From Flavobacteriaceae bacterium UBA4166 (GTDB taxonomy: Bacteria; Bacteroidota; Bacteroidia; Flavobacteriales; Flavobacteriaceae), in NCBI GenBank assembly GCA_002379985.1, contig DFVG01000010.1:4630-68629 (forward strand): a stretch of DNA of 64,000 nucleotides, in the 5' to 3' direction. Both the position numbers and the translations under genes were made by a program. A model generated the notes under the pieces. It did not search any database and was not told the origin of the DNA. It saw nothing but the letters and a program-made list of their open reading frames with translations. Shown piece by piece: positions 29,518 through 57,754 of the stretch (positions are counted from its first letter, which is position 1; each line of letters opens with the position of its first letter).

Positions 29518-30117
29518 ATGAAAAAGAAACCATTATATCATCGATTATTCCTTGTTGCGGTCATGGCGATGGTGTTTCAAAGTTGTGGTTCTTCTGAAAA
29601 TGCCGCTGAAGAGACACAAAATGCGCAAGCCTTTCAGGCTGTTAGTGATTTAGTAGCTTCTGAAATGTATCGTATTGATGTAGAAAATGCGCAACCTTTT
29701 AATACGGCTGCAACGACGCAAGTACTTAATGAATTGGCGCCTTATATGAATGGAAGCACTTCCGGGAATATACAACTGTCTGGCGACAATTACTTTTTAG
29801 AAGTCACACAAGGAAAAGTGAAGGCTAATATGCCGTTTTTCGGACAACAATTGCAAGGTAGCGGTGGAAATAGAAACAGTCAGGATGTTGGTGTGGATAT
29901 GAATGGAATGACGGAAGATTATGCCGCAAAGGTTTTAGAGCGCAAGCAGAAAATTGAAATCTACTTTGAAGCAGATGATGTAAACAACAAAACCGAACGC
30001 TATCAAGTATTTATCAACGCATACCCAAACCAACGTGCCACCATACAAGTAACTTCTTCGCAACGCACGGTGATTCGATATACCGGAAGAATTCATGCCG
30101 TTCCGGATGCGATGTAA
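29518..30117 (+). CDS. lipoprotein, DUF4251-like
   Basis: MKKKPLYHRLFLVAVMAMVFQSCGS lipobox. Two-lobed beta-rich layout (YRIDVENAQP..., YFLEV...) resembles DUF4251. Confidence 0.55.
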   Translation: MKKKPLYHRLFLVAVMAMVFQSCGSSENAAEETQNAQAFQAVSDLVASEMYRIDVENAQPFNTAATTQVLNELAPYMNGSTSGNIQLSGDNYFLEVTQGKVKANMPFFGQQLQGSGGNRNSQDVGVDMNGMTEDYAAKVLERKQKIEIYFEADDVNNKTERYQVFINAYPNQRATIQVTSSQRTVIRYTGRIHAVPDAM

Positions 30118-30183: not shown

Positions 30184-30215
<32 letters not shown>

Positions 30216-30247
30216 TGCAATCAAAGTAAATTACTGGATACGCAGTA

Positions 30248-30304
30248 TTTTACATAATTACAGTTCTAGTGCTTTAGCGCTATAACGGTCGTAATTATGT
30301 AAAA
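30248..30304. promoter_or_regulatory. perfect 14-bp inverted repeat TTTTACATAATTAC-N29-GTAATTATGTAAAA
   Basis: The arms 30248-30261 and 30291-30304 are exact reverse complements. They belong to a five-copy TTTTACATAA motif family. Function unknown. Confidence 0.5.
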
Positions 30305-30504
30305 AGTAGTTTGCGCGTAGCTACACTATTTTGTTCAACATCAGAAATCACATTGCGTATGCGAATTATGTCAGCAGATATTATGTAAAAGCAAATTGCG
30401 CTACTAAAGTAATTGTTTCTTTCTCTATCAATCTTTTCTGCCCGTCCAAAAAAGATTCAAAAATAGGACGCTCTTTATGTATAAATTTTAGTAAGTAAAA
30501 CCAG

Positions 30505-30560
30505 AACGCAGCGCTATATTCATTCCAAGGTTTCATGAATGCTTACGCTGCGTTTTTATT
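30505..30560 (+). terminator. long hairpin followed by a T-run (terminator-like or structured RNA)
   Basis: Arms aacgcagcg (30505-13) and cgctgcgtt (30546-54) with inner pairing attcat/atgaat, then TTTTTATT. Confidence 0.4.
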
Positions 30561-30984
30561 CTGTGTAAAGAGGAATTTGTCTAGAACCAATTAGTGAAAT
30601 CATATCGCCAAATTGATGCAAAATGCCTTCCTCTCGCTATGCTCGTCGGAGACACTAAAAATCAAGACTGCATACGGGTGATCGTTAAGAAATGGTCTCG
30701 AAGACCATTTTAGTGAGCCGCGAGCCGGTGCGCTGGTAGAAACAATTAACGGCTCGCTGCGCTATATTTTAGGAAAGCTTAGTACTCGCTTATAATGATC
30801 ACGACAAGCTTTAAGCATTTGAAAACTAAGATTATTTAGAACTATCCCCTAAAATATGGTCGTTCCACTCGCCTATTGTTTTTACCAAAATTTTATGAGG
30901 TCAAGTTTAACATCGAGAATCTATTTTACATAAAATTACAATTTTATATATTCTTATATTATGAAAAATATAGTTTTAGTTAGA

Positions 30985-31113
30985 TTACTTTCTTTTGCGT
31001 TTAGGTGGCTTCAGTGATGGTGTATTTCCTGGTGTATCCTTATTATCTCTCTGACGTCTATCCGGTTTTCCTGTTGATTTAGCAATTCTTTTTGGCCCTG
31101 GTTTAAGTCCCAT
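30985..31113 (-). CDS. possible 42-aa highly basic peptide
   Basis: ATG lies 11 nt after the cyclase stop: MGLKPGPKRIAKSTGKPDRRQRDNKDTPGNTPSLKPPKRKRK*. There is no other support for it. Confidence 0.2.
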   Translation of the reverse strand: MGLKPGPKRIAKSTGKPDRRQRDNKDTPGNTPSLKPPKRKRK

Positions 31114-31124
31114 AATATTTGTTT

Positions 31125-32462
31125 TCAATTTAATATGTTATTTAAGTTTATATCTGTATCCAATTTGTCATCTACGTAAATTGGGAATTTTAATACTATA
31201 TTGTTTGTATGCTCTCTTTGAATTGTGCATTTTAGATAATGGTTTCCATGATAGCCAGCATGAGCAATACAATATGTTTGATTCAAATAAAAATTCTCAA
31301 AATTGTGTCGTTCCTCATTTGCTAGTTTCGCTTCTTTACCTGAATTGAAAGCTTCCCAAATAATTTTTTCATGAGGTTTTTTATAATATGGCGAACCATT
31401 TATCATTAGTTGATATTTAATATATTTGCCTTTAAGTATAGAATAGTTGTTTTCATAATATTGAGAAGCAGTACTTTCTTGTTTTGGTCTGTAAACACTC
31501 GCTTTAAGGGTAAAAGGATTATCAACGATTTCTAAATTACCACTTCCATTTTTTCTATAAAATGAGAAACTATTTAAATATTTTTTCCAACTGAAATCAA
31601 ATTGACAATAATTAAGTTCTGAAGATTGAATTATATATCTATCCTCAACAGGTTGACCATTCTTTTTAACCGTTGGTATACTGATATAATCTTCGTTCAT
31701 TTCTATAGCATCAACTAAATTTTTACCAATTCTAATAGAATTTACTGATGCTTTATTCTGTAATTTAGCAGCTAAATCAGTATGTAAGCTAGTTGTTGTA
31801 AGCTCATTACAATTAGCAATCCCATAGTGAGACCACATAACATTGTCATCATTTCCATAATCTAAACCAACTCTTATTTTTATTGGGTCAAGTCCATAAT
31901 TTTCAAATGCTGATGATAAGTCTTCAGAAACAACTTGACATAAAACGCTCGCAGAATTAAGAGCATTAATTACACTATTATTCGGGTTAGAATTTTTTCT
32001 CACAAACTGAACAAATACTGCATCTCCTTGTAATCTATGAACATGTCCTCCAAAATGACTGACTACATTGATGCAAAGAGTTAATAAAGTGTCTTTAATT
32101 AAACGTACTTCTTCTAAAGAGTATTTAAGAGCTAATCTAGTAGAGCCTTTAATATCTACAAACATAGAAACACAATGATGATTAAGTGTTTGATTATGTT
32201 CTAGGTTCTCAAAATCTGGATGATTACCAATTTTTATGGTATCAAAAGAATATTTATTTGGTCCGAAATATTTTTGAAGTTGATTAGAGTCAAACTCTAA
32301 TATCGTTTTAGAATCTGGTTCTATTGTTGTCGGTAAAGAAGAAAATGTTTCTGTACTTTGATTTAGCAAGATATATGGTGATTTAATTCCTTTTTGAAAT
32401 TTTTGTTCTGATCTGCTCAATACACTTTCTATTCCTGATTTGTAGTTTTTAAATAAGCTCAT
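31125..32462 (-). CDS. class III nucleotidyl cyclase (Pycsar PycC-like) with an uncharacterised C-terminal domain
   Basis: Cyclase-homology core: VSMFVDIKGSTRL (metal Asp 1), GGHVHRLQGDAVFVQF (metal Asp 2), IKIRVGLDYG and HTDLAAKLQNKA. About 95 aa N-terminal and about 190 aa C-terminal sequence remain unassigned. Confidence 0.8.
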   Translation of the reverse strand: MSLFKNYKSGIESVLSRSEQKFQKGIKSPYILLNQSTETFSSLPTTIEPDSKTILEFDSNQLQKYFGPNKYSFDTIKIGNHPDFENLEHNQTLNHHCVSMFVDIKGSTRLALKYSLEEVRLIKDTLLTLCINVVSHFGGHVHRLQGDAVFVQFVRKNSNPNNSVINALNSASVLCQVVSEDLSSAFENYGLDPIKIRVGLDYGNDDNVMWSHYGIANCNELTTTSLHTDLAAKLQNKASVNSIRIGKNLVDAIEMNEDYISIPTVKKNGQPVEDRYIIQSSELNYCQFDFSWKKYLNSFSFYRKNGSGNLEIVDNPFTLKASVYRPKQESTASQYYENNYSILKGKYIKYQLMINGSPYYKKPHEKIIWEAFNSGKEAKLANEERHNFENFYLNQTYCIAHAGYHGNHYLKCTIQREHTNNIVLKFPIYVDDKLDTDINLNNILN

Positions 32463-32974
32463 ACTATTTTAATTATAATAATTATTAAAAGCAGAATTAA
32501 TTGAACAAAGACCATTCTAATAGACCAACGGATTCTGTTATATTTTGTTTTTAAACCTTTTGATATAGAATAAATCTGTTTCGCTATATCTTTACATACT
32601 TTTTTATCCTTTTGTTCCTTGTATTGATTTAGAAAATCTTCTTCATTCATATCAGCAATAGATTTAAAAAATACTAAAGAGTGATACTTTTTACTACTCG
32701 AATTATTGGTTTTTAAAAAAGGAAATACAGCTGCTATTGTAAAACCAATACTTAATATTCCTATTACAAGTATACCAATAAGAAGACCTATTGTCCAGTT
32801 CTCTGCCTTACCATTATTAAACCCAATTATATCATTAAAGCTTGTTACTATGAAACCAAATAAAAAGGCACTAAAAGCCAATAAGAAGTTCCCTTTACTA
32901 TTAGCTCCTTCAATGTAATGATCGAACCTATTCAACACATACCTAGATTGTTCTATTTCATTTATTTCTTTCAT
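32459..32974 (-). CDS. small multi-TM protein resembling Pycsar TM / SLATT-type effectors
   Basis: 171 aa. N-terminal helix, TM segments (FLLAFSAFLFGFIV, IGLLIGILVIGILSIGFTIAAVF), a cytosolic HSLVFFKSIADMNEEDF region and a C-terminal TM (FVQLILLLIIIIIKIV). ATGA overlap with the cyclase. Confidence 0.6.
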   Translation of the reverse strand: MKEINEIEQSRYVLNRFDHYIEGANSKGNFLLAFSAFLFGFIVTSFNDIIGFNNGKAENWTIGLLIGILVIGILSIGFTIAAVFPFLKTNNSSSKKYHSLVFFKSIADMNEEDFLNQYKEQKDKKVCKDIAKQIYSISKGLKTKYNRIRWSIRMVFVQLILLLIIIIIKIV

Positions 32975-33598
32975 TTAAATTTTTATTACTTCTTCAACAA
33001 TTCCTTGAATTCTAAAATTGCTTGTTAATATTATTGGTTGATGTATTTTATTTGTTGATTTTGGCTTTAGAATTACCATTCCTCCACTTCTAAAAAATTC
33101 TTTAACTGTTGCTTCATCATCAATAAGAGCTAATACTTTATCACCATTATTTGCGTCTTGCTGTTGTCTTATTAATAATAAATCTCCATCATTAATCCCT
33201 GCTTCATTCATAGAATCACCTTCTGCCCTCAATAAGAAATATTTATAACCCTTTTTTATAATCTCTACAGAAATAGAAACTTCAGCTTCAATATTCTCAT
33301 CTGCAAAAATTGGTATTCCACAAGCTACACTTCCTAATAAAGGTATTTTCACAGTTTGTGCTCTTGAACCATAATCTTCGGGTATTTCAAAATCAACAAT
33401 CTGATAACTGCCATCTGGCTTTTTTCTTAAAATTTCTTTTTCTTCAAGACTTTTCAATAAAACAGCAGATGAACGCGGTGATTTATATCCCAAGCCACTC
33501 ATTAATTCACGTACACTTGGCATCTTTCCTTGATGGACTAAAGCGTTTCTAATAATTTTTAATGCTTCTACCTCTTTATCAGACAAATTATAAAACAT
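32975..33598 (-). CDS. lexA: canonical LexA-type repressor (winged-helix DNA-binding domain + S24 peptidase)
   Basis: Collinear with E. coli LexA: PSVRELMSGLGYKSPRSSAVLLKSLEEKEIL (wHTH), Ala-Gly site in LLGSVACGIPIFA, Ser in EGDSM and Lys in ATVKEF. Its stop is immediately followed by the next ATG. ATG at 33596-33598; the track starts at a TTG. Confidence 0.85.
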   Translation of the reverse strand: MFYNLSDKEVEALKIIRNALVHQGKMPSVRELMSGLGYKSPRSSAVLLKSLEEKEILRKKPDGSYQIVDFEIPEDYGSRAQTVKIPLLGSVACGIPIFADENIEAEVSISVEIIKKGYKYFLLRAEGDSMNEAGINDGDLLLIRQQQDANNGDKVLALIDDEATVKEFFRSGGMVILKPKSTNKIHQPIILTSNFRIQGIVEEVIKI

Positions 33599-33780
33599 AC
33601 ACAAATATACACTTTGAATACAGTCGTAACATTATTATAAGATATTAGTTATAAACTAGTTATCAACATTTTTTAAATTTGCGAGTACGAGTATAAATAT
33701 ATTTTTGGAGGGGATATTTTCTTTGAGGAATTCCGTAAAGAAAAATATAAGCAATTATAATATCATTTCACATCCCCCTT

Positions 33781-34040
33781 CGCTTACTCGCCGATCCCCA
33801 AGCCTTTCCCACTAACTAACCAATCCACCAATCCACCAACTCACAACTTCACTAACCCCATTGTCTATAGAAACGAAATTCTCTCTCAATAACGAAACCA
33901 AGTTCCAACAACTTCTCTACTATAGACCCAACTAAACCCCGCACCCCACAACAAAAAACGACCCCATTTCTGGAGTCGCTTTTATCTATCATTTCATACA
34001 TCATACGTCATAAGTCCTAGCGTCTAACATCCTAGGTCCT
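33781..34040. repeat. G-depleted low-complexity word repeat, inverted counterpart of 29262-29425
   Basis: 12 G in 33781-33960 by direct count. Contains caccaactcac (33834-44), the reverse complement of gtgagttggtg (29310-20), plus gtcctag/acatcct words. Confidence 0.7.
33952..33980 (-). terminator. probable terminator of the BNR/sortilin-like gene
   Basis: On the minus strand, gcgactcc/ggggtcg imperfect stem followed by TTTTTT. Confidence 0.45.
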
Positions 34041-55683: not shown

Positions 55684-55711
55684 AAAGCGGCTCCTGAAGC
55701 CGCTTTTTTTA
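55684..55711 (+). terminator. rho-independent terminator
   Basis: aagcggct / agccgctt stem with loop cctga, followed by TTTTTTTATT. Confidence 0.75.
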
Positions 55712-55780
55712 TTTCTTGATCTCAAATTATGTATCTTTAAGTAACCGTACGATGATTGCCCGTATCTAGACCCCCACGTT

Positions 55781-56212
55781 ATGCAGGTTATAAATTCACC
55801 TTTCTACGCTGATTGTCTTCATACCATCAAAAAACCATTTGGTGAATTTTTTATATTCCCCGATTTTGTGATTGGTGAAATTTCTGAAGGGGTACATTAC
55901 AATTGGGATCTTGCCATTGAGGTGATTGAAGAAGTATATGAGTATTTTGGATCCAGAGATATTGATGTGACTTATATTTCAAACCGTATACACTCCTATT
56001 CATTACATCCACAAGACTGGATAAAATTTTTTAAGAATAACCACTATATCAATGGCTTCGGAATAGTTACTTATAACAAAATTACCTTTAAGAATGTACT
56101 TATCGAGAAATTATTCTTTACCTCAAACCTTCGCCAATTTGAAACACTCGAAGCTGCCATAGATTGGGCACTATCGCTTTCTTCAAGAAACAAAAGACGC
56201 AAAAAGGGATAA
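55781..56212 (+). CDS. hypothetical protein, possibly STAS/SpoIIAA-like fold
   Basis: 143 aa. The C-terminal FETLEAAIDWALSL ending resembles STAS/SEC14-like small proteins. Tentative. Confidence 0.35.
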   Translation: MQVINSPFYADCLHTIKKPFGEFFIFPDFVIGEISEGVHYNWDLAIEVIEEVYEYFGSRDIDVTYISNRIHSYSLHPQDWIKFFKNNHYINGFGIVTYNKITFKNVLIEKLFFTSNLRQFETLEAAIDWALSLSSRNKRRKKG

Positions 56213-56291
56213 GATAAAAATAAGTAGTGTTAAAATCTTAATGTTTTGTTAAAGGAATTGATAAATAGACTAGATTTGTTGCCATATATCT

Positions 56292-56663
56292 ATGATCATG
56301 GCGTTACAACATCTTACCGATTTCTGTGAATTACATCTCTTTGACCGGTATGCGATTCTTAAGACATTTGAGAATCAATTGATGGATTCTAAAAAAGTAA
56401 AAGCGCTTCAAAAAATGTTTGCAGCACATTTTAAGGCCAGTGAATTTGTATTAATCTCCGATCGAAGTCATCAATACCAAATAGATCTAAATATCTACAA
56501 AGGCCCGAAAATACCAACCCTAAAGGGTGTTGCCGTTGTTTCAAAGACACCAGGTGAACGAGACCGAGCTTTACAGGAACAATCGCTGTACGATAATAGT
56601 TTTGCCTTTTTTGAGAATCTTGACGACGCTGTTCAATGGGCAAAAGCATTTTTCCGCTATTAG
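56292..56663 (+). CDS. hypothetical protein, distant paralogue of 55781-56212 (STAS-like?)
   Basis: 123 aa. Same layout and a similar ending (FENLDDAVQWAKAFF). Tentative. Confidence 0.35.
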   Translation: MIMALQHLTDFCELHLFDRYAILKTFENQLMDSKKVKALQKMFAAHFKASEFVLISDRSHQYQIDLNIYKGPKIPTLKGVAVVSKTPGERDRALQEQSLYDNSFAFFENLDDAVQWAKAFFRY

Positions 56664-56675
56664 CAGAATTCAATG

Positions 56676-57290
56676 TTACCCTGATACAGCAGGAAATTCT
56701 TCCAGCGCTTCAACAAGTTGATAAATATCTGAAATATCCTTTTCGGGCTCAATCTCTTGAAGGTCTGAAATTCTCTGATATTTTAAATGATAACAGTTGT
56801 CATTTGTATCACTGCTATACAACTCATCAATGACGCATACATTATTCTGAAATTTTATGATGTATGCGGTCGCTTCTTTAATTTTATTCTTCCGAATCTT
56901 CTGCCCCACCACAACACTGCCTTTGGCGACAGACGGATGGGTAGACTCTTCTATCTTTAAAACGATAATATTTCGGTTGGTATTTACTAATTTTAGCTTG
57001 CGTACATCCGACTCAACCACTAAAAGTCGTTTTTGTTGATGTGAATCCGACTTCAATGTTACATCTTCTGTCGGTTGAGTTTCTCGTTCTTCTCCAAAGA
57101 AAATATAATTTAGATTCAATTGACGCTCGTTACAAAGTGCGATTACCTTATTAAAATCAAGCGTATCCCTTTTTTTCCAAGTAGAAAGTGTATTGGGTTT
57201 TATATCTAAAAGTTTACAGAGTGCTTTATCTGAGGTAAGTAGAAGTTCATTTTTTATTCTTTCGATTACGGTAATAGCCGATTGTGCCAT
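56676..57290 (-). CDS. CI-repressor-type HTH regulator with uncharacterised C-terminal domain
   Basis: N-terminal IERIKNELLLTSDKALCKLLDIKPNTLSTWKKRDTLDFNKVIALC resembles the phage CI repressor HTH domain. Confidence 0.6.
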   Translation of the reverse strand: MAQSAITVIERIKNELLLTSDKALCKLLDIKPNTLSTWKKRDTLDFNKVIALCNERQLNLNYIFFGEERETQPTEDVTLKSDSHQQKRLLVVESDVRKLKLVNTNRNIIVLKIEESTHPSVAKGSVVVGQKIRKNKIKEATAYIIKFQNNVCVIDELYSSDTNDNCYHLKYQRISDLQEIEPEKDISDIYQLVEALEEFPAVSG

Positions 57291-57754
57291 ATATCACTTT
57301 TTACTAATACATGCCCAACATTGGGGAGGTATGTTACAGATCACTTTTAAACACCTTCTGGAGAATAAAAGCAACTTTTAATTAGGGAGTTAACTCGAAT
57401 AAAGATACCATTATTTGCAAATAAGTCAAGTTTAAATTCAAATTCCAACATTTTTGTAACAACTTCTAATTAAAAATAAGAAAATGTTAACGTTTCTTCC
57501 CCTTGATCGTAAGCTTTAAGACTGCAATATTCATAGGGTCTTCATGGTTTTTTCTTAGACTCATCTCAAAATGAGAACTCTCTTATTGAGAATATTTAAC
57601 ATATTTTTAAGATTTATTTTTATAACTTAGACCATATATCGATGATTCTAGACTTTCATCGCGAGCGAATCCTCACCTTGTAGTAATTACTACTTGTTCG
57701 TTAGAAGTAACGATTATTCGTTGCACATAAGAAGAACTTCAAAGCCCCGAATAT

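What the first reader, a model, noticed from the sequence alone, without database searches (positions are those of the whole stretch)
31125..33604. Translationally coupled operon: canonical LexA repressor, multi-TM effector-like protein and class III nucleotide cyclase (Pycsar-like, apparently wired to the SOS signal)
**Seen in the sequence**
- Three minus-strand genes have essentially no intergenic space. The lexA-like TAA is directly followed by the ATG of the 171-aa TM protein, and that gene's TGA overlaps the cyclase ATG (ATGA).
- The cyclase has both metal-binding Asp contexts of the cyclase-homology domain (FVDIKGST, LQGDAVFVQF).
- The 171-aa protein has the helix, TM segments, cytosolic loop and C-terminal TM layout of membrane-disrupting effectors.
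- The first gene keeps every functional element of autocleavable LexA: the wHTH, the Ala-Gly site in VACG, the GDSM Ser and the TVKEF Lys.

**Established knowledge**
- Cyclase plus TM effector pairs define Pycsar anti-phage systems.
- LexA self-cleaves on RecA-ssDNA filaments.
- Bacteroidota were reported to largely lack canonical LexA.

**Inference**
- This may be a cyclic-nucleotide abortive-infection module whose expression, or whose trigger, is gated by a dedicated LexA paralogue. I do not know of such a gene order (regulator, effector, cyclase) and regulatory logic being described for Pycsar.
Basis: partly seen in the sequence, partly recalled or inferred. Interest (0 to 1): 0.85.

Follow-up and report, generated by a model that had tools for sequence, protein, structure and literature searches.

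The report
Portable LexA switch on Pycsar defence islet
A small, horizontally acquired island in a marine Flavobacteriaceae genome carries a standard cCMP-type Pycsar anti-phage system behind a self-cleaving LexA repressor, and the same LexA-plus-promoter module sits in front of many different CBASS systems in other genomes, which suggests a so far undescribed portable DNA-damage switch for cyclic-nucleotide immunity.

Summary
Three minus-strand genes (lexA 33598-32975, pycTM 32974-32459, pycC 32462-31125) are joined TAA|ATG and ATGA, inside a ~3.6-kb low-GC islet.

The cyclase is a full-length PycC (PADLOC E=4e-158). It has an AGS-C domain and the CTP-specificity residues of EaPycC (8JSF). 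The 171-aa protein is PycTM. The first gene is a canonical wHTH + S24 LexA (TIGR00498 above cut-off). Its scissile bond is Cys93-Gly94, as in UmuD, not Ala-Gly.

The main new result is comparative. Of 29 loci with a LexA at least 70% identical, 28 carry cyclic-nucleotide defence cargo directly downstream: Pycsar in 2, CBASS types I, II and III in the rest. None of ~50 ordinary lexA loci does. DNA homology between islets stops at the lexA stop codon.

A TGTAT-N6-TGTAT-N5-TGTAT array abuts the start codon. It occurs 35 times in 1.38 Mb, always at such a lexA.

Variants replace the wHTH head and the promoter with an XRE head and a new palindrome. The same Pycsar pair also occurs without any repressor.

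I read this LexA as an islet-borne, autoregulated repressor that probably lifts repression on RecA*/DNA damage. That makes it a functional analogue of CapW, CapH/CapP and CapK/CapS. I found no description of it in the literature. The Pycsar itself is ordinary; the regulator module is a new variant.

The parts
30184..33815 (-). Whole mobile defence islet (~3.6 kb), low GC, inserted between a Sortilin/BNR-type host gene and a DUF4251 host gene. The left limit is approximate.
   Evidence: GC is 28-33% against about 42% in the flanks. blastn homology to other islets runs from about 33784 to 32974 and resumes at 31142-30985, 30952-30739 and 30220-30184, with nothing beyond. After 30184 the loci diverge at once.
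33597..33622 (-). TGTAT-N6-TGTAT-N5-TGTAT direct-repeat array, the best operator candidate. Its last copy overlaps the ATG, and it contains a Bacteroidetes-type -7 box, TAtaTTTG, at 33609-33602.
   Evidence: Unique in the window even with 1 mismatch, with 0 of 100 shuffles matching. It occurs 35 times in 1.38 Mb, always within 60 nt upstream of a wHTH-LexA start. It is the only upstream element kept in orphan lexA at 66-69% identity and, in part, at 55%. It is lost when the wHTH head is replaced by an XRE head.
33646..33667 (-). GTTGATAACTA-GTTTATAACTA tandem (contains the palindrome TAGTT-N3-AACTA). Second operator or promoter candidate.
   Evidence: Conserved in islet-borne copies but absent upstream of orphan relatives.
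33723..33738 (-). TTACGGAATTCCTCAA, a degenerate copy of a TTACGG-N4-CCGTAA palindrome found in other islets.
   Evidence: A perfect palindrome in L013, L007 and L045. Absent from orphan lexA promoters. Function unknown.
32975..33598 (-). lexA: a 207-aa canonical LexA (wHTH + S24). Predicted scissile bond Cys93-Gly94; catalytic Ser129 and Lys166.
   Evidence: TIGR00498 lexA at 150 bits (cut-off 111); PF01726 + PF00717. Full-length alignment to E. coli LexA structures, E=4e-24. Residue conservation in 118-120 of 120 clade members. No PADLOC model matches.
32459..32974 (-). pycTM: a 171-aa transmembrane Pycsar effector. Its start follows the lexA stop with no gap.
   Evidence: Pfam PycTM E=1.2e-16 (61.5 bits; cut-off 27.2). 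PADLOC 2TM effector E=3e-47 and PycTM E=3e-35.
31125..32462 (-). pycC: a 445-aa Pycsar cyclase with a class III cyclase core (D103, D147) and a C-terminal AGS-C domain. Predicted cytidylate cyclase (F101, R143, Q145).
   Evidence: PADLOC PycC PDLC00761 E=4e-158 over residues 1-430; Pfam AGS_C E=5.5e-12. Best solved relative is 8JSF, the EaPycC cytidylate cyclase, E=1e-49, with the CTP-specificity residues F100/R142/Q144 conserved.
30985..31113 (-). 42-aa very basic small ORF (MGLKPGPKRIAKSTGKPDRRQRDNKDTPGNTPSLKPPKRKRK), part of the islet backbone.
   Evidence: Conserved after unrelated cargo in L020 and in L010 (where it is frameshifted), with mostly synonymous differences. No Pfam hit.
30739..30952 (-). 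Block b: a conserved non-coding imperfect inverted repeat (AAACAAT..ATATTTTAGRGG / variable ~75 nt / CYCTAAAATAT..ATTGTTT). Either a cassette-boundary element or a terminator.
   Evidence: Found in about 20 loci, downstream of the cargo and sometimes upstream of lexA. 24 predicted pairs with one compensatory column (A-U in 6 sequences, G-C in 5). No Rfam match.
30184..30220 (-). Right terminus of the islet (TTGCACTATAATTTATATTATGTAAAATAGAATATTT).
   Evidence: 97-100% identical across 9 loci from different genera, followed immediately by unrelated host DNA.

Best explanation
The window carries a horizontally acquired, non-autonomous defence islet of about 3.6 kb. Its cargo is an ordinary clade-E / 'Pycsar-2' Pycsar system. 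PycC (a class III cyclase with an AGS-C domain) is predicted to make cCMP on infection. cCMP would activate the membrane effector PycTM, and the infected cell would die or arrest (abortive infection).

The first gene of the operon is a canonical LexA that belongs to the islet, not to the host SOS network. I infer that it binds its own promoter, most likely at the TGTAT direct-repeat array that overlaps the -7 box and the start codon, and keeps lexA-pycTM-pycC at a low, autoregulated level. I further infer that RecA-ssDNA filaments formed by DNA damage, prophage induction or phage replication stimulate self-cleavage at Cys93-Gly94 by the Ser129/Lys166 dyad. That would derepress the operon and raise the amounts of Pycsar proteins.

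The promoter-plus-lexA unit is a portable module. The same unit, ending exactly at the lexA stop codon, drives CBASS type I, II or III cassettes in other Flavobacteriaceae. Its DNA-binding head and operator can be exchanged as a unit for an XRE-type head with a different palindrome.

Shown: gene identities, catalytic residues, modular architecture, association statistics and motif specificity. Inferred: operator identity, repression, RecA dependence, cCMP as the product, and anti-phage activity.
For: Identity of the parts.

Foreign origin: GC trough; sharp conserved termini followed by host-specific DNA; different chromosomal sites in different genera.

Association: 28 of 29 loci with a LexA at least 70% identical have CBASS or Pycsar directly downstream, mostly with gaps of 0-14 nt. 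None of about 50 ordinary lexA loci (35-55% identity) does.

Module boundary: blastn homology among about 30 loci ends at 32974/32975, the lexA stop codon.

Autoregulatory site: the TGTAT x3 array occurs 35 times in 1.38 Mb, always at a wHTH-lexA start and never elsewhere. It is unique in the 64-kb window, with 0 of 100 shuffles matching. It is retained in relatives at 55-69% identity whose remaining upstream DNA is unrelated. It is replaced by a different perfect palindrome when the wHTH is replaced by an XRE HTH.

Cleavage competence: Cys-Gly, Ser and Lys are conserved in 118-120 of 120 clade members. Cys-Gly is the natural site of UmuD (established knowledge).

Not the host SOS regulator: Bacteroidetes are reported to lack canonical LexA and to run SOS with CI-like S24 regulators (PMC8565304); there is no other S24 ORF in the window.

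Precedent for the logic: CapW, CapH/CapP and CapK/CapS repress adjacent CBASS, Pycsar and other immune operons and respond to DNA damage.
Against: There is no experiment. Repression, cleavage and induction are all inferred.

The TGTAT array overlaps a -7-like box and the start codon, so part of its conservation could reflect promoter or translation-start constraints rather than repressor binding. It is a direct repeat, whereas most LexA boxes are palindromes; alphaproteobacterial GTTC-N7-GTTC is the precedent. Two other conserved upstream motifs exist.

The repressor is dispensable for keeping the cargo. The same PycTM-PycC pair occurs without any repressor inside type I R-M operons, and the A. 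agarilytica lexA has an in-frame stop.

Stand-alone relatives at 66-69% identity sit in conserved chromosomal contexts, and one at 78% does too (L016). The protein family can therefore have another role.

For CapW and CapH/CapP, induction was not required for phage protection in laboratory assays, so the benefit of such gating is unclear.

Genome-wide absence of further boxes could not be tested, because only 64 kb of this genome is available.
Confidence: 0.65

Rival explanations
1. The LexA is simply the organism's SOS master regulator, and the Pycsar pair happens to lie next to it, or was inserted downstream of it, without any dedicated regulatory link.
For: The protein passes the NCBIfam lexA equivalog threshold. 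Stand-alone relatives at 66-69% identity sit in conserved chromosomal contexts in low-GC genomes, where they could be SOS regulators.
Against: lexA shares the islet's foreign GC content and its conserved termini. The gene is found at different chromosomal sites with CBASS or Pycsar cargo in 28 of 29 close loci, against none of about 50 ordinary lexA loci. The stop and start codons abut. The candidate operator occurs only at lexA itself in 1.38 Mb. Flavobacteriaceae use CI-like S24 regulators for SOS.
Confidence: 0.06
2. The S24 repressor is the immunity or maintenance repressor of a mobile element, like CI of prophages or SetR of SXT-type ICEs. Its primary role would be to couple the element's own mobilisation or copy number to the SOS response, and the defence genes would be passenger cargo expressed as a side effect.
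For: The islet has highly conserved termini, subterminal inverted repeats and a recurrent insertion site next to DUF4251. S24 repressors classically control mobile elements (established knowledge; see also the discussion). XRE-type CI-like heads can substitute for the wHTH.
Against: The islet contains no integrase, transposase, replication or transfer gene. The only genes in the repressor's operon are the defence genes, and they are translationally coupled to it. There are no close relatives on viral contigs.
Confidence: 0.12
3. The LexA acts mainly as a constitutive safety catch that silences a toxic effector-plus-cyclase pair, for example during establishment after horizontal transfer. In this view RecA-stimulated cleavage is irrelevant or vestigial.
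For: Abortive-infection cargo is potentially toxic. The repressor is the first gene of the operon and is probably negatively autoregulated. For CapW and CapH/CapP, induction was not needed for protection.
Against: The Cys-Gly site and the Ser/Lys dyad are invariant or nearly so in 120 of 120 sequences, which argues for selection on self-cleavage. The cargo persists without a repressor in R-M-embedded copies and with a truncated lexA in L010, so silencing is not essential for carriage.
Confidence: 0.12
4. The adjacency is a chance product of defence-island shuffling, and the LexA gene has no functional relation to the cargo.
For: Defence genes cluster and recombine frequently. L049/L112 shows further defence genes (a second CD-NTase and a type III-A retron) just downstream.
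Against: The cargo is restricted to cyclic-nucleotide systems in 28 of 28 cargo-bearing loci. The junction is fixed at the lexA stop codon. The genes are co-oriented and tightly spaced.
Confidence: 0.03

Closest known systems
Pycsar, clade E / 'Pycsar-2' type (EcPycC-EcPycTM; EaPycC, PDB 8JSF)
   Same: A two-gene cyclase plus TM-effector system. PycC has a class III cyclase core, both metal-binding Asp residues, the CTP-specificity triad F/R/Q and a C-terminal AGS-C domain. PycTM is a Pfam family member.
   Different: Nothing essential in the two core genes. The difference is that this copy is preceded in the same operon by a LexA repressor and rides on a small islet with conserved ends.
CapW/BrxR, CapH+CapP and CapK+CapS (DNA-damage-responsive regulators encoded beside CBASS, Pycsar, BREX and DISARM operons)
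   Same: A repressor encoded immediately upstream of diverse abortive-infection operons, portable between cargo types, and (inferred here) relieved by a DNA-damage signal.
   Different: The protein family is unrelated. There is no WYL domain, no CapP-type metallopeptidase and no kinase. It is a single self-cleaving S24 protein that would read the signal through the host's RecA filament rather than binding ssDNA itself. It is co-transcribed as the first gene of the operon.
Canonical LexA / SOS regulon (E. coli LexA, PDB 1JHH and 3JSO)
   Same: wHTH + S24 architecture, the Ser/Lys dyad, a hinge cleavage site, and probable autoregulation from a site at its own promoter.
   Different: It is encoded on a mobile islet in a phylum reported to lack canonical LexA. 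The scissile bond is Cys-Gly, as in UmuD. The candidate operator is a triple direct repeat found only at its own promoter in the DNA available, and no repair genes are seen under its control.
Non-canonical LexA of Bacteroidetes (CI-like HTH + S24; Sanchez-Osuna et al. 2021)
   Same: An S24 self-cleaving repressor in Flavobacteriaceae. The XRE-head variants of the islet repressor (L022, L051, L052, L105) have the same overall architecture.
   Different: The window protein has a LexA-type winged HTH, not a CI-type head. Its candidate motif is unrelated to CTAA-N5-TTAG or GGA-N5-TCC. It is linked to defence cargo, not to dinB or umuDC.
S24 and related repressors of mobile elements (lambda CI, SXT SetR; ImmR/ImmA)
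   Same: A repressor carried by a mobile element and inactivated via the SOS signal (established knowledge).
   Different: No mobility genes are under its control here. The operon it heads consists only of immune genes.

Membership tests
Pycsar | A PycC-family class III nucleotide cyclase with both catalytic Asp motifs | tested here: met
   PADLOC PycC E=4e-158, full length. Alignment to EaPycC 8JSF at E=1e-49, with D103 and D147 conserved. Pfam PF00211 itself did not score; only AGS_C did.
Pycsar | An adjacent effector with TM helices (PycTM) or a TIR domain | tested here: met
   Pfam PycTM at 61.5 bits against a cut-off of 27.2; PADLOC effector E=3e-47; ATGA overlap with pycC.
Pycsar | The cyclase makes cCMP or cUMP | not testable with these tools
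   The CTP-specificity residues F100/R142/Q144 of EaPycC are conserved as F101/R143/Q145, so cCMP is predicted. cGMP-making relatives ('Pucsar') exist, so LC-MS is needed.
Pycsar | Confers phage resistance by abortive infection | not testable with these tools
   Needs phage challenge of a host that expresses the operon.
Canonical LexA | N-terminal winged HTH (PF01726) plus a C-terminal S24 peptidase domain (PF00717) | tested here: met
   PF01726 E=1e-7 (32 bits; cut-off 23.7) and PF00717 E=5e-28. TIGR00498 at 150 bits against a cut-off of 111.
Canonical LexA | Ser/Lys catalytic dyad and an Ala-Gly scissile bond in the hinge | tested here: inconclusive
   Ser129 and Lys166 are present and conserved. 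The scissile position is Cys93-Gly94 instead of Ala-Gly in 120 of 120 sequences. Cys-Gly is the functional site of UmuD, so cleavage is plausible but untested.
Canonical LexA | RecA*-stimulated self-cleavage | not testable with these tools
   Needs an in vitro cleavage assay or in vivo mitomycin C/UV treatment.
Canonical LexA | Controls a multi-gene SOS regulon through boxes at DNA-repair genes | tested here: not met
   The candidate box occurs only at lexA itself in the 64-kb window and in 1.38 Mb of related loci. This test is limited, because the complete genome was not available.
CapW/BrxR, CapH+CapP or CapK+CapS regulators | A WYL-WCX domain protein, or an HTH repressor with a Zn-metallopeptidase partner, or a kinase with a repressor | tested here: not met
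   Pfam finds only LexA_DNA_bind + Peptidase_S24. No PADLOC model matches, and there is no partner gene in the islet. It is a functional analogue, not a member.
Integron-type gene cassette | attC-like imperfect inverted repeat with R''/R' core sites, and an integron integrase nearby | tested here: not met
   Block b is an imperfect inverted repeat around a variable centre, but it lacks the RYYYAAC/GTTRRRY cores. No integrase is present in the window islet.

The most novel reading that the evidence does not exclude
Marine Flavobacteriaceae carry a family of small, non-autonomous 'plug-and-play' immune islets. In these, a self-cleaving S24 repressor with exchangeable wHTH or XRE heads and matching operators forms a fourth, RecA-dependent class of DNA-damage switch for cyclic-nucleotide immunity (CBASS types I-III and Pycsar). 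The cassettes are exchanged at the repressor's stop codon and are moved by an unknown trans-acting system that recognises the conserved hairpin-like boundary repeats and prefers the 3' side of a DUF4251 gene. This would also mean that canonical LexA does exist in Bacteroidota, but as an immune-operon regulator rather than as the SOS master regulator.
Probability: 0.3. Interest if true: 0.85.

Novelty: new variant of a known kind. Interest (0 to 1): 0.68.

Why it matters
How abortive-infection systems are kept silent and then switched on is an active question. Three regulator families (CapW/BrxR, CapH+CapP, CapK+CapS) have each been characterised as DNA-damage sensors sitting beside CBASS, Pycsar and other operons.

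A cis-encoded canonical LexA would add a fourth solution, and a mechanistically different one. It would tap the host RecA filament, the classical SOS signal, instead of sensing ssDNA directly.

It would also give a concrete function to the 'LexA' genes annotated in a phylum thought to lack canonical LexA.

Finally, it offers a natural set of more than 25 islets with the same promoter and repressor but different cargo, plus head-swapped variants. That set is well suited to testing whether transcriptional gating matters for immunity, toxicity or horizontal transfer.

Tried and rejected
- **Pfam Guanylate_cyc.** It did not score for the cyclase. Family placement rests on the PADLOC PycC models and on PDB 8JSF.
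- **Empty site.** I looked for a conspecific empty site using the flanking Sortilin-like protein. All 22 contigs carry the islet, so excision or insertion could not be shown directly.
- **Non-coding RNA.** Rfam (E up to 1) and tRNA scans of the islet and window found nothing. No tRNA att site or known ncRNA explains the non-coding ~0.9 kb downstream of pycC.
- **Phage-borne origin.** Only one relative, at 40% identity, was found in IMG/VR. Rejected.
- **A second LexA in the window.** The CI-type HTH protein at 56676-57290 has no detectable S24 domain.
- **The three upstream motifs as operators.** The ATAAC tandem and the TTACGG-N4-CCGTAA palindrome are absent from orphan relatives, so I rank them below the TGTAT array. 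They are not excluded.
- **Integron attC interpretation of block b.** The core sites and an integrase are missing, so I kept it only as a structural resemblance.
- **Terminators.** The intrinsic-terminator scan of the islet found none.
- **Literature.** Searches for LexA or S24 together with CBASS, Pycsar or SMODS found no description of this association. Subscription-only papers are not covered.
- **Not run.** I did not run structure prediction, because full-length profile and PDB sequence matches already settle the folds.


Full report
**1. What is in the sequence**

Three minus-strand ORFs occupy 31125-33604. On the coding strand the first junction reads AAA ATT TAA|ATG AAA, so the lexA stop is followed directly by the next start. 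The second reads GT ATG A GC, an ATGA overlap. The conserved start of the first gene is the ATG at 33598, giving 207 aa. This is the length of nearly all relatives. The TTG at 33604 lies inside a promoter-like box. The trio sits in a GC trough of 28-33%, against about 42% on both sides.

**2. Identity of the three proteins**

*The 445-aa protein.* It matches the PADLOC PycC model PDLC00761 over its full length (E=4e-158) and has a Pfam AGS_C domain at residues 315-423. Pfam's Guanylate_cyc model does not score. Its closest solved structure is 8JSF (E=1e-49, residues 2-314). That structure is EaPycC from Elizabethkingia anophelis, a clade-E cytidylate cyclase whose CTP-specificity residues are F100, R142 and Q144 (PMC11224242). 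In the alignment these are conserved as F101, R143 and Q145, and the two catalytic Asp residues as D103 and D147. A recent preprint defines a 'Pycsar-2' subclade by an N-terminal bihelical domain, a C-terminal AGS-C domain and exclusive pairing with TM effectors. The same preprint shows that some relatives ('Pucsar') make cGMP. cCMP is therefore the best prediction, not a certainty.

*The 171-aa protein.* It is PycTM (Pfam 61.5 bits against a cut-off of 27.2; PADLOC 2TM effector E=3e-47).

*The 207-aa protein.* It passes the NCBIfam lexA equivalog model (150 bits against a cut-off of 111), carries LexA_DNA_bind plus Peptidase_S24, and aligns end to end with E. coli LexA structures. Ser129 and Lys166 match E. 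coli S119 and K156. The residue matching Ala84 is Cys93, so the predicted scissile bond is Cys93-Gly94. In 120 clade members, Cys, Gly and Ser are invariant and Lys is present in 118. Cys-Gly is the natural cleavage site of UmuD (established knowledge). No PADLOC model matches this protein.

**3. The LexA belongs to a portable module, not to Pycsar and not to the host**

Close relatives of this LexA (66-93% identity) occur in many marine Flavobacteriaceae genera. I fetched their loci from genomes and metagenomes and by look-up. Only two of them, both Aquimarina, have PycTM-PycC after lexA. In the others lexA is followed, on the same strand, usually after 0-14 nt and in equally low-GC DNA, by different cassettes. 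PADLOC and Pfam identify all of these as CBASS:
- patatin + CD-NTase;
- CD-NTase + E1/E2 + JAB + SAVED-HNH;
- 2TM + CD-NTase + E1/E2 + JAB;
- CD-NTase + E1/E2-JAB + NucC;
- CD-NTase + E2 + SAVED-HNH;
- CD-NTase + TM-STING;
- NUDIX-2TM + CD-NTase + E2;
- CD-NTase + TRIP13 + SAVED-peptidase, which is type III.

A single systematic table gives the count. It covers loci with a LexA at least 70% identical and enough downstream sequence, excluding copies of the window contig:

| LexA identity to the window protein | Informative loci | With cyclic-nucleotide defence cargo |
|---|---|---|
| 70% or more | 29 | 28 (the exception is L016) |
| 35-55% (ordinary lexA loci picked up by the same scans) | about 50 | 0 |

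At the nucleotile level, homology between the window and about 30 loci runs from roughly 33784/33679 to 32974. It stops at the lexA stop codon.

**4. The islet has defined ends and a backbone**

Downstream of the cargo, homology resumes in three places:
- a 42-aa basic ORF (31113-30985), shared with L010 and L020, with mostly synonymous differences;
- a ~165-215-nt imperfect inverted repeat, block b (30952-30739), present in about 20 loci, with 24 predicted pairs and one compensatory column;
- a 37-nt terminus (30220-30184) that is 97-100% identical across genera and is followed at once by unrelated DNA.

The window islet has no recombinase. Rfam and tRNA scans are negative, and there are no close relatives on viral contigs. 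A DUF4251 host gene (26-33% identical between genera) is the right-hand neighbour in the window, L010, L008, L019 and L105/106, which suggests an insertion hotspot. All 22 conspecific contigs carry the islet, so I found no empty site.

**5. Candidate operator**

About 230 bp upstream of lexA are conserved across genera. Three motifs stand out:
- TGTAT-N6-TGTAT-N5-TGTAT(G) at 33622-33597. It overlaps a Bacteroidetes-type -7 box, TAtaTTTG, and the start codon.
- A GTTRATAACTA tandem at 33667-33646.
- A TTACGG-N4-CCGTAA palindrome, degenerate in the window at 33738-33723.

Three tests favour the TGTAT array.

First, specificity. It is unique in the window even with one mismatch (0 of 100 shuffles match). 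It occurs 35 times in 1.38 Mb of fetched DNA, always within 60 nt upstream of a wHTH-lexA start and never elsewhere.

Second, deep footprinting. Stand-alone relatives at 66-69% identity, in unrelated genomic contexts, keep only this array. Relatives at 55% identity keep GTAT/TGTAT motifs at the start codon.

Third, co-variation with the DNA-binding head. In L022, L051, L052 and L105/106 the wHTH is replaced by an XRE-type HTH fused to the same S24 tail. In L105, nucleotide homology to the window starts at about 33349, the hinge. In these loci the whole promoter-proximal region is replaced, and a different perfect palindrome, ATCTCATA-T-TATGAGAT, appears.

The half-site resembles the E. coli CTGTAT half-site. 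The direct-repeat arrangement recalls the alphaproteobacterial GTTC-N7-GTTC box.

One caveat applies. The overlap with the promoter and the start codon means that conservation alone cannot prove repressor binding.

**6. The cargo side**

PycC relatives at 69-92% identity are common in Flavobacteriaceae. In Xanthomarina, Nonlabens and Salegentibacter the same PycTM-then-PycC pair, with the same 4-nt overlap, lies between hsdS and hsdR of type I R-M operons and has no repressor. In L105/L106 it follows an XRE-S24 repressor after a 1-nt gap. Two conclusions follow. The effector-then-cyclase order is the norm for this subclade. The S24 repressor is an optional add-on.

**7. Host context**

The window is ordinary Flavobacteriaceae chromosome: T9SS cargo and PorP/SprF, TerC, GntR and similar genes. 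It matches TARA and other marine assemblies. Bacteroidetes were reported to have no canonical LexA and to run SOS through CI-like S24 regulators with CTAA-N5-TTAG or GGA-N5-TCC boxes (PMC8565304). No other S24 protein is encoded in the window. The stand-alone subclade sits in genomes whose GC content (27-32%) equals that of the gene. Such lineages may be the source of the islet's lexA, and there the protein may have a different role, possibly a true SOS role.

**8. Mechanism proposed**

*Shown:* the parts, their catalytic residues, the modular architecture and the association statistics.

*Inferred:*
1. LexA binds the TGTAT array and autoregulates lexA-pycTM-pycC.
2. RecA-ssDNA filaments, formed on DNA damage, prophage induction or phage replication, trigger cleavage at Cys93-Gly94 and derepress the operon.
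3. PycC, once activated by infection, makes cCMP.
4. PycTM then disrupts the membrane (Pycsar mechanism as summarised in PMC11224242).

**9. Comparison with what is known, and novelty**

The regulatory logic matches CapW/BrxR, CapH+CapP and CapK+CapS. These are the families listed as DNA-damage-responsive regulators of adjacent CBASS, Pycsar, BREX and DISARM operons as of June 2026. None of those papers mentions LexA or S24. Full-text searches for LexA or S24 together with CBASS, Pycsar or SMODS found no description of this association. Subscription-only literature was not searchable.

The Pycsar itself is a new member of a known kind. The LexA module is a new variant of a known kind of regulation.

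Points against over-interpretation:
- There is no experimental evidence.
- Induction was dispensable for protection in the CapW and CapH/CapP studies.
- The cargo persists without the repressor.
- L010 carries a lexA with an in-frame stop.
- Orphan relatives exist.

Noticed in passing
window 30985-31113 (-): A 42-aa, very basic small ORF lies right after pycC. It is conserved (mostly synonymous differences) after unrelated cargo in L020 and, frameshifted, in L010. It has no family match. It is probably a real small protein of the islet backbone.
   Followed up: partly
window 30739-30952 (-); ~20 related loci: A conserved ~165-215-nt imperfect inverted repeat surrounds a variable centre (24 predicted pairs, one compensatory column). 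It lies downstream of the cargo and sometimes upstream of lexA. It could be a cassette-boundary or recombination hairpin, or a terminator. It has no Rfam match.
   Followed up: partly
window 30184-30220 (-), with related copies at 30246-30272 and 30916-30935: A 37-nt islet terminus is 97-100% identical across genera and is followed by host-specific DNA. Its core, TTATGTAAAATAG, recurs inside the islet, and inverted copies occur nearby (14-nt perfect inverted repeat at 30248-30261 / 30291-30304). A similar ~100-nt unit lies about 430 nt upstream of lexA in L005, L019, L020 and L042.
   Followed up: partly
window 29518-30117 (+); L010, L008, L019, L105/L106: A DUF4251 host gene (26-33% identical between genera) is the immediate right-hand neighbour of the islet in at least five lineages. 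This suggests a preferred insertion site at its 3' end.
   Followed up: partly
L022, L051, L052, L105, L106: These are head-swapped repressors: an XRE/CI-type HTH fused at the hinge to the same S24 tail, with a different promoter and a perfect palindrome, ATCTCATA-T-TATGAGAT. They sit in front of CBASS (L022) or the same Pycsar pair (L105/106).
   Followed up: partly
L005, L006, L007, L010, L020, L022, L045, L046: A conserved 132-136-aa protein (MNKLDFLKFELATF...SLMPSLSNWEIK) recurs at the 3' side of many cassettes, often preceded by a 67-74-aa ORF (MERYRNRDSGVKAYQ...). Neither has a Pfam or PADLOC match. Both are absent from the window islet.
   Followed up: partly
L010:10001-10621 (Aquimarina agarilytica ZC1): The lexA of this Pycsar islet has an in-frame stop at codon 54 (SLEE*EIL), while pycTM and pycC are intact. 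It is either a natural repressor-null islet or an assembly error.
   Followed up: no
L107-L111: Stand-alone lexA genes at 66-69% identity sit in conserved chromosomal contexts of low-GC (27-32%) Bacteroidota genomes and keep the TGTAT array. They may be a genuine canonical LexA lineage in a phylum said to lack one, and the likely donor of the islet gene.
   Followed up: partly
L102, L103, L104: The same PycTM-PycC pair is embedded between hsdS and hsdR of type I R-M operons (Xanthomarina, Nonlabens, Salegentibacter), together with RhuM-like, PLD-nuclease or reverse-transcriptase genes. This is a second kind of hotspot for the cassette.
   Followed up: no
L056, L057, L086, L089: An S24 domain about 50% identical to the LexA tail is fused to the C-terminus of 636-770-aa proteins of unknown function. 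This is a different architecture that uses the same self-cleaving module.
   Followed up: no
window 55700-57300: A second low-GC patch (35-37%) holds a 204-aa protein with a phage-CI-type HTH but no detectable S24 domain (56676-57290, minus strand). Two small ORFs that look paralogous lie on the plus strand (55781-56212 and 56292-56663). It may be a remnant of another mobile element.
   Followed up: partly
L049 / L112 (Polaribacter-like): The LexA-CBASS islet is followed directly by a second CD-NTase-like gene and a type III-A retron (PRTase + reverse transcriptase), so here the islet is part of a larger defence island.
   Followed up: no
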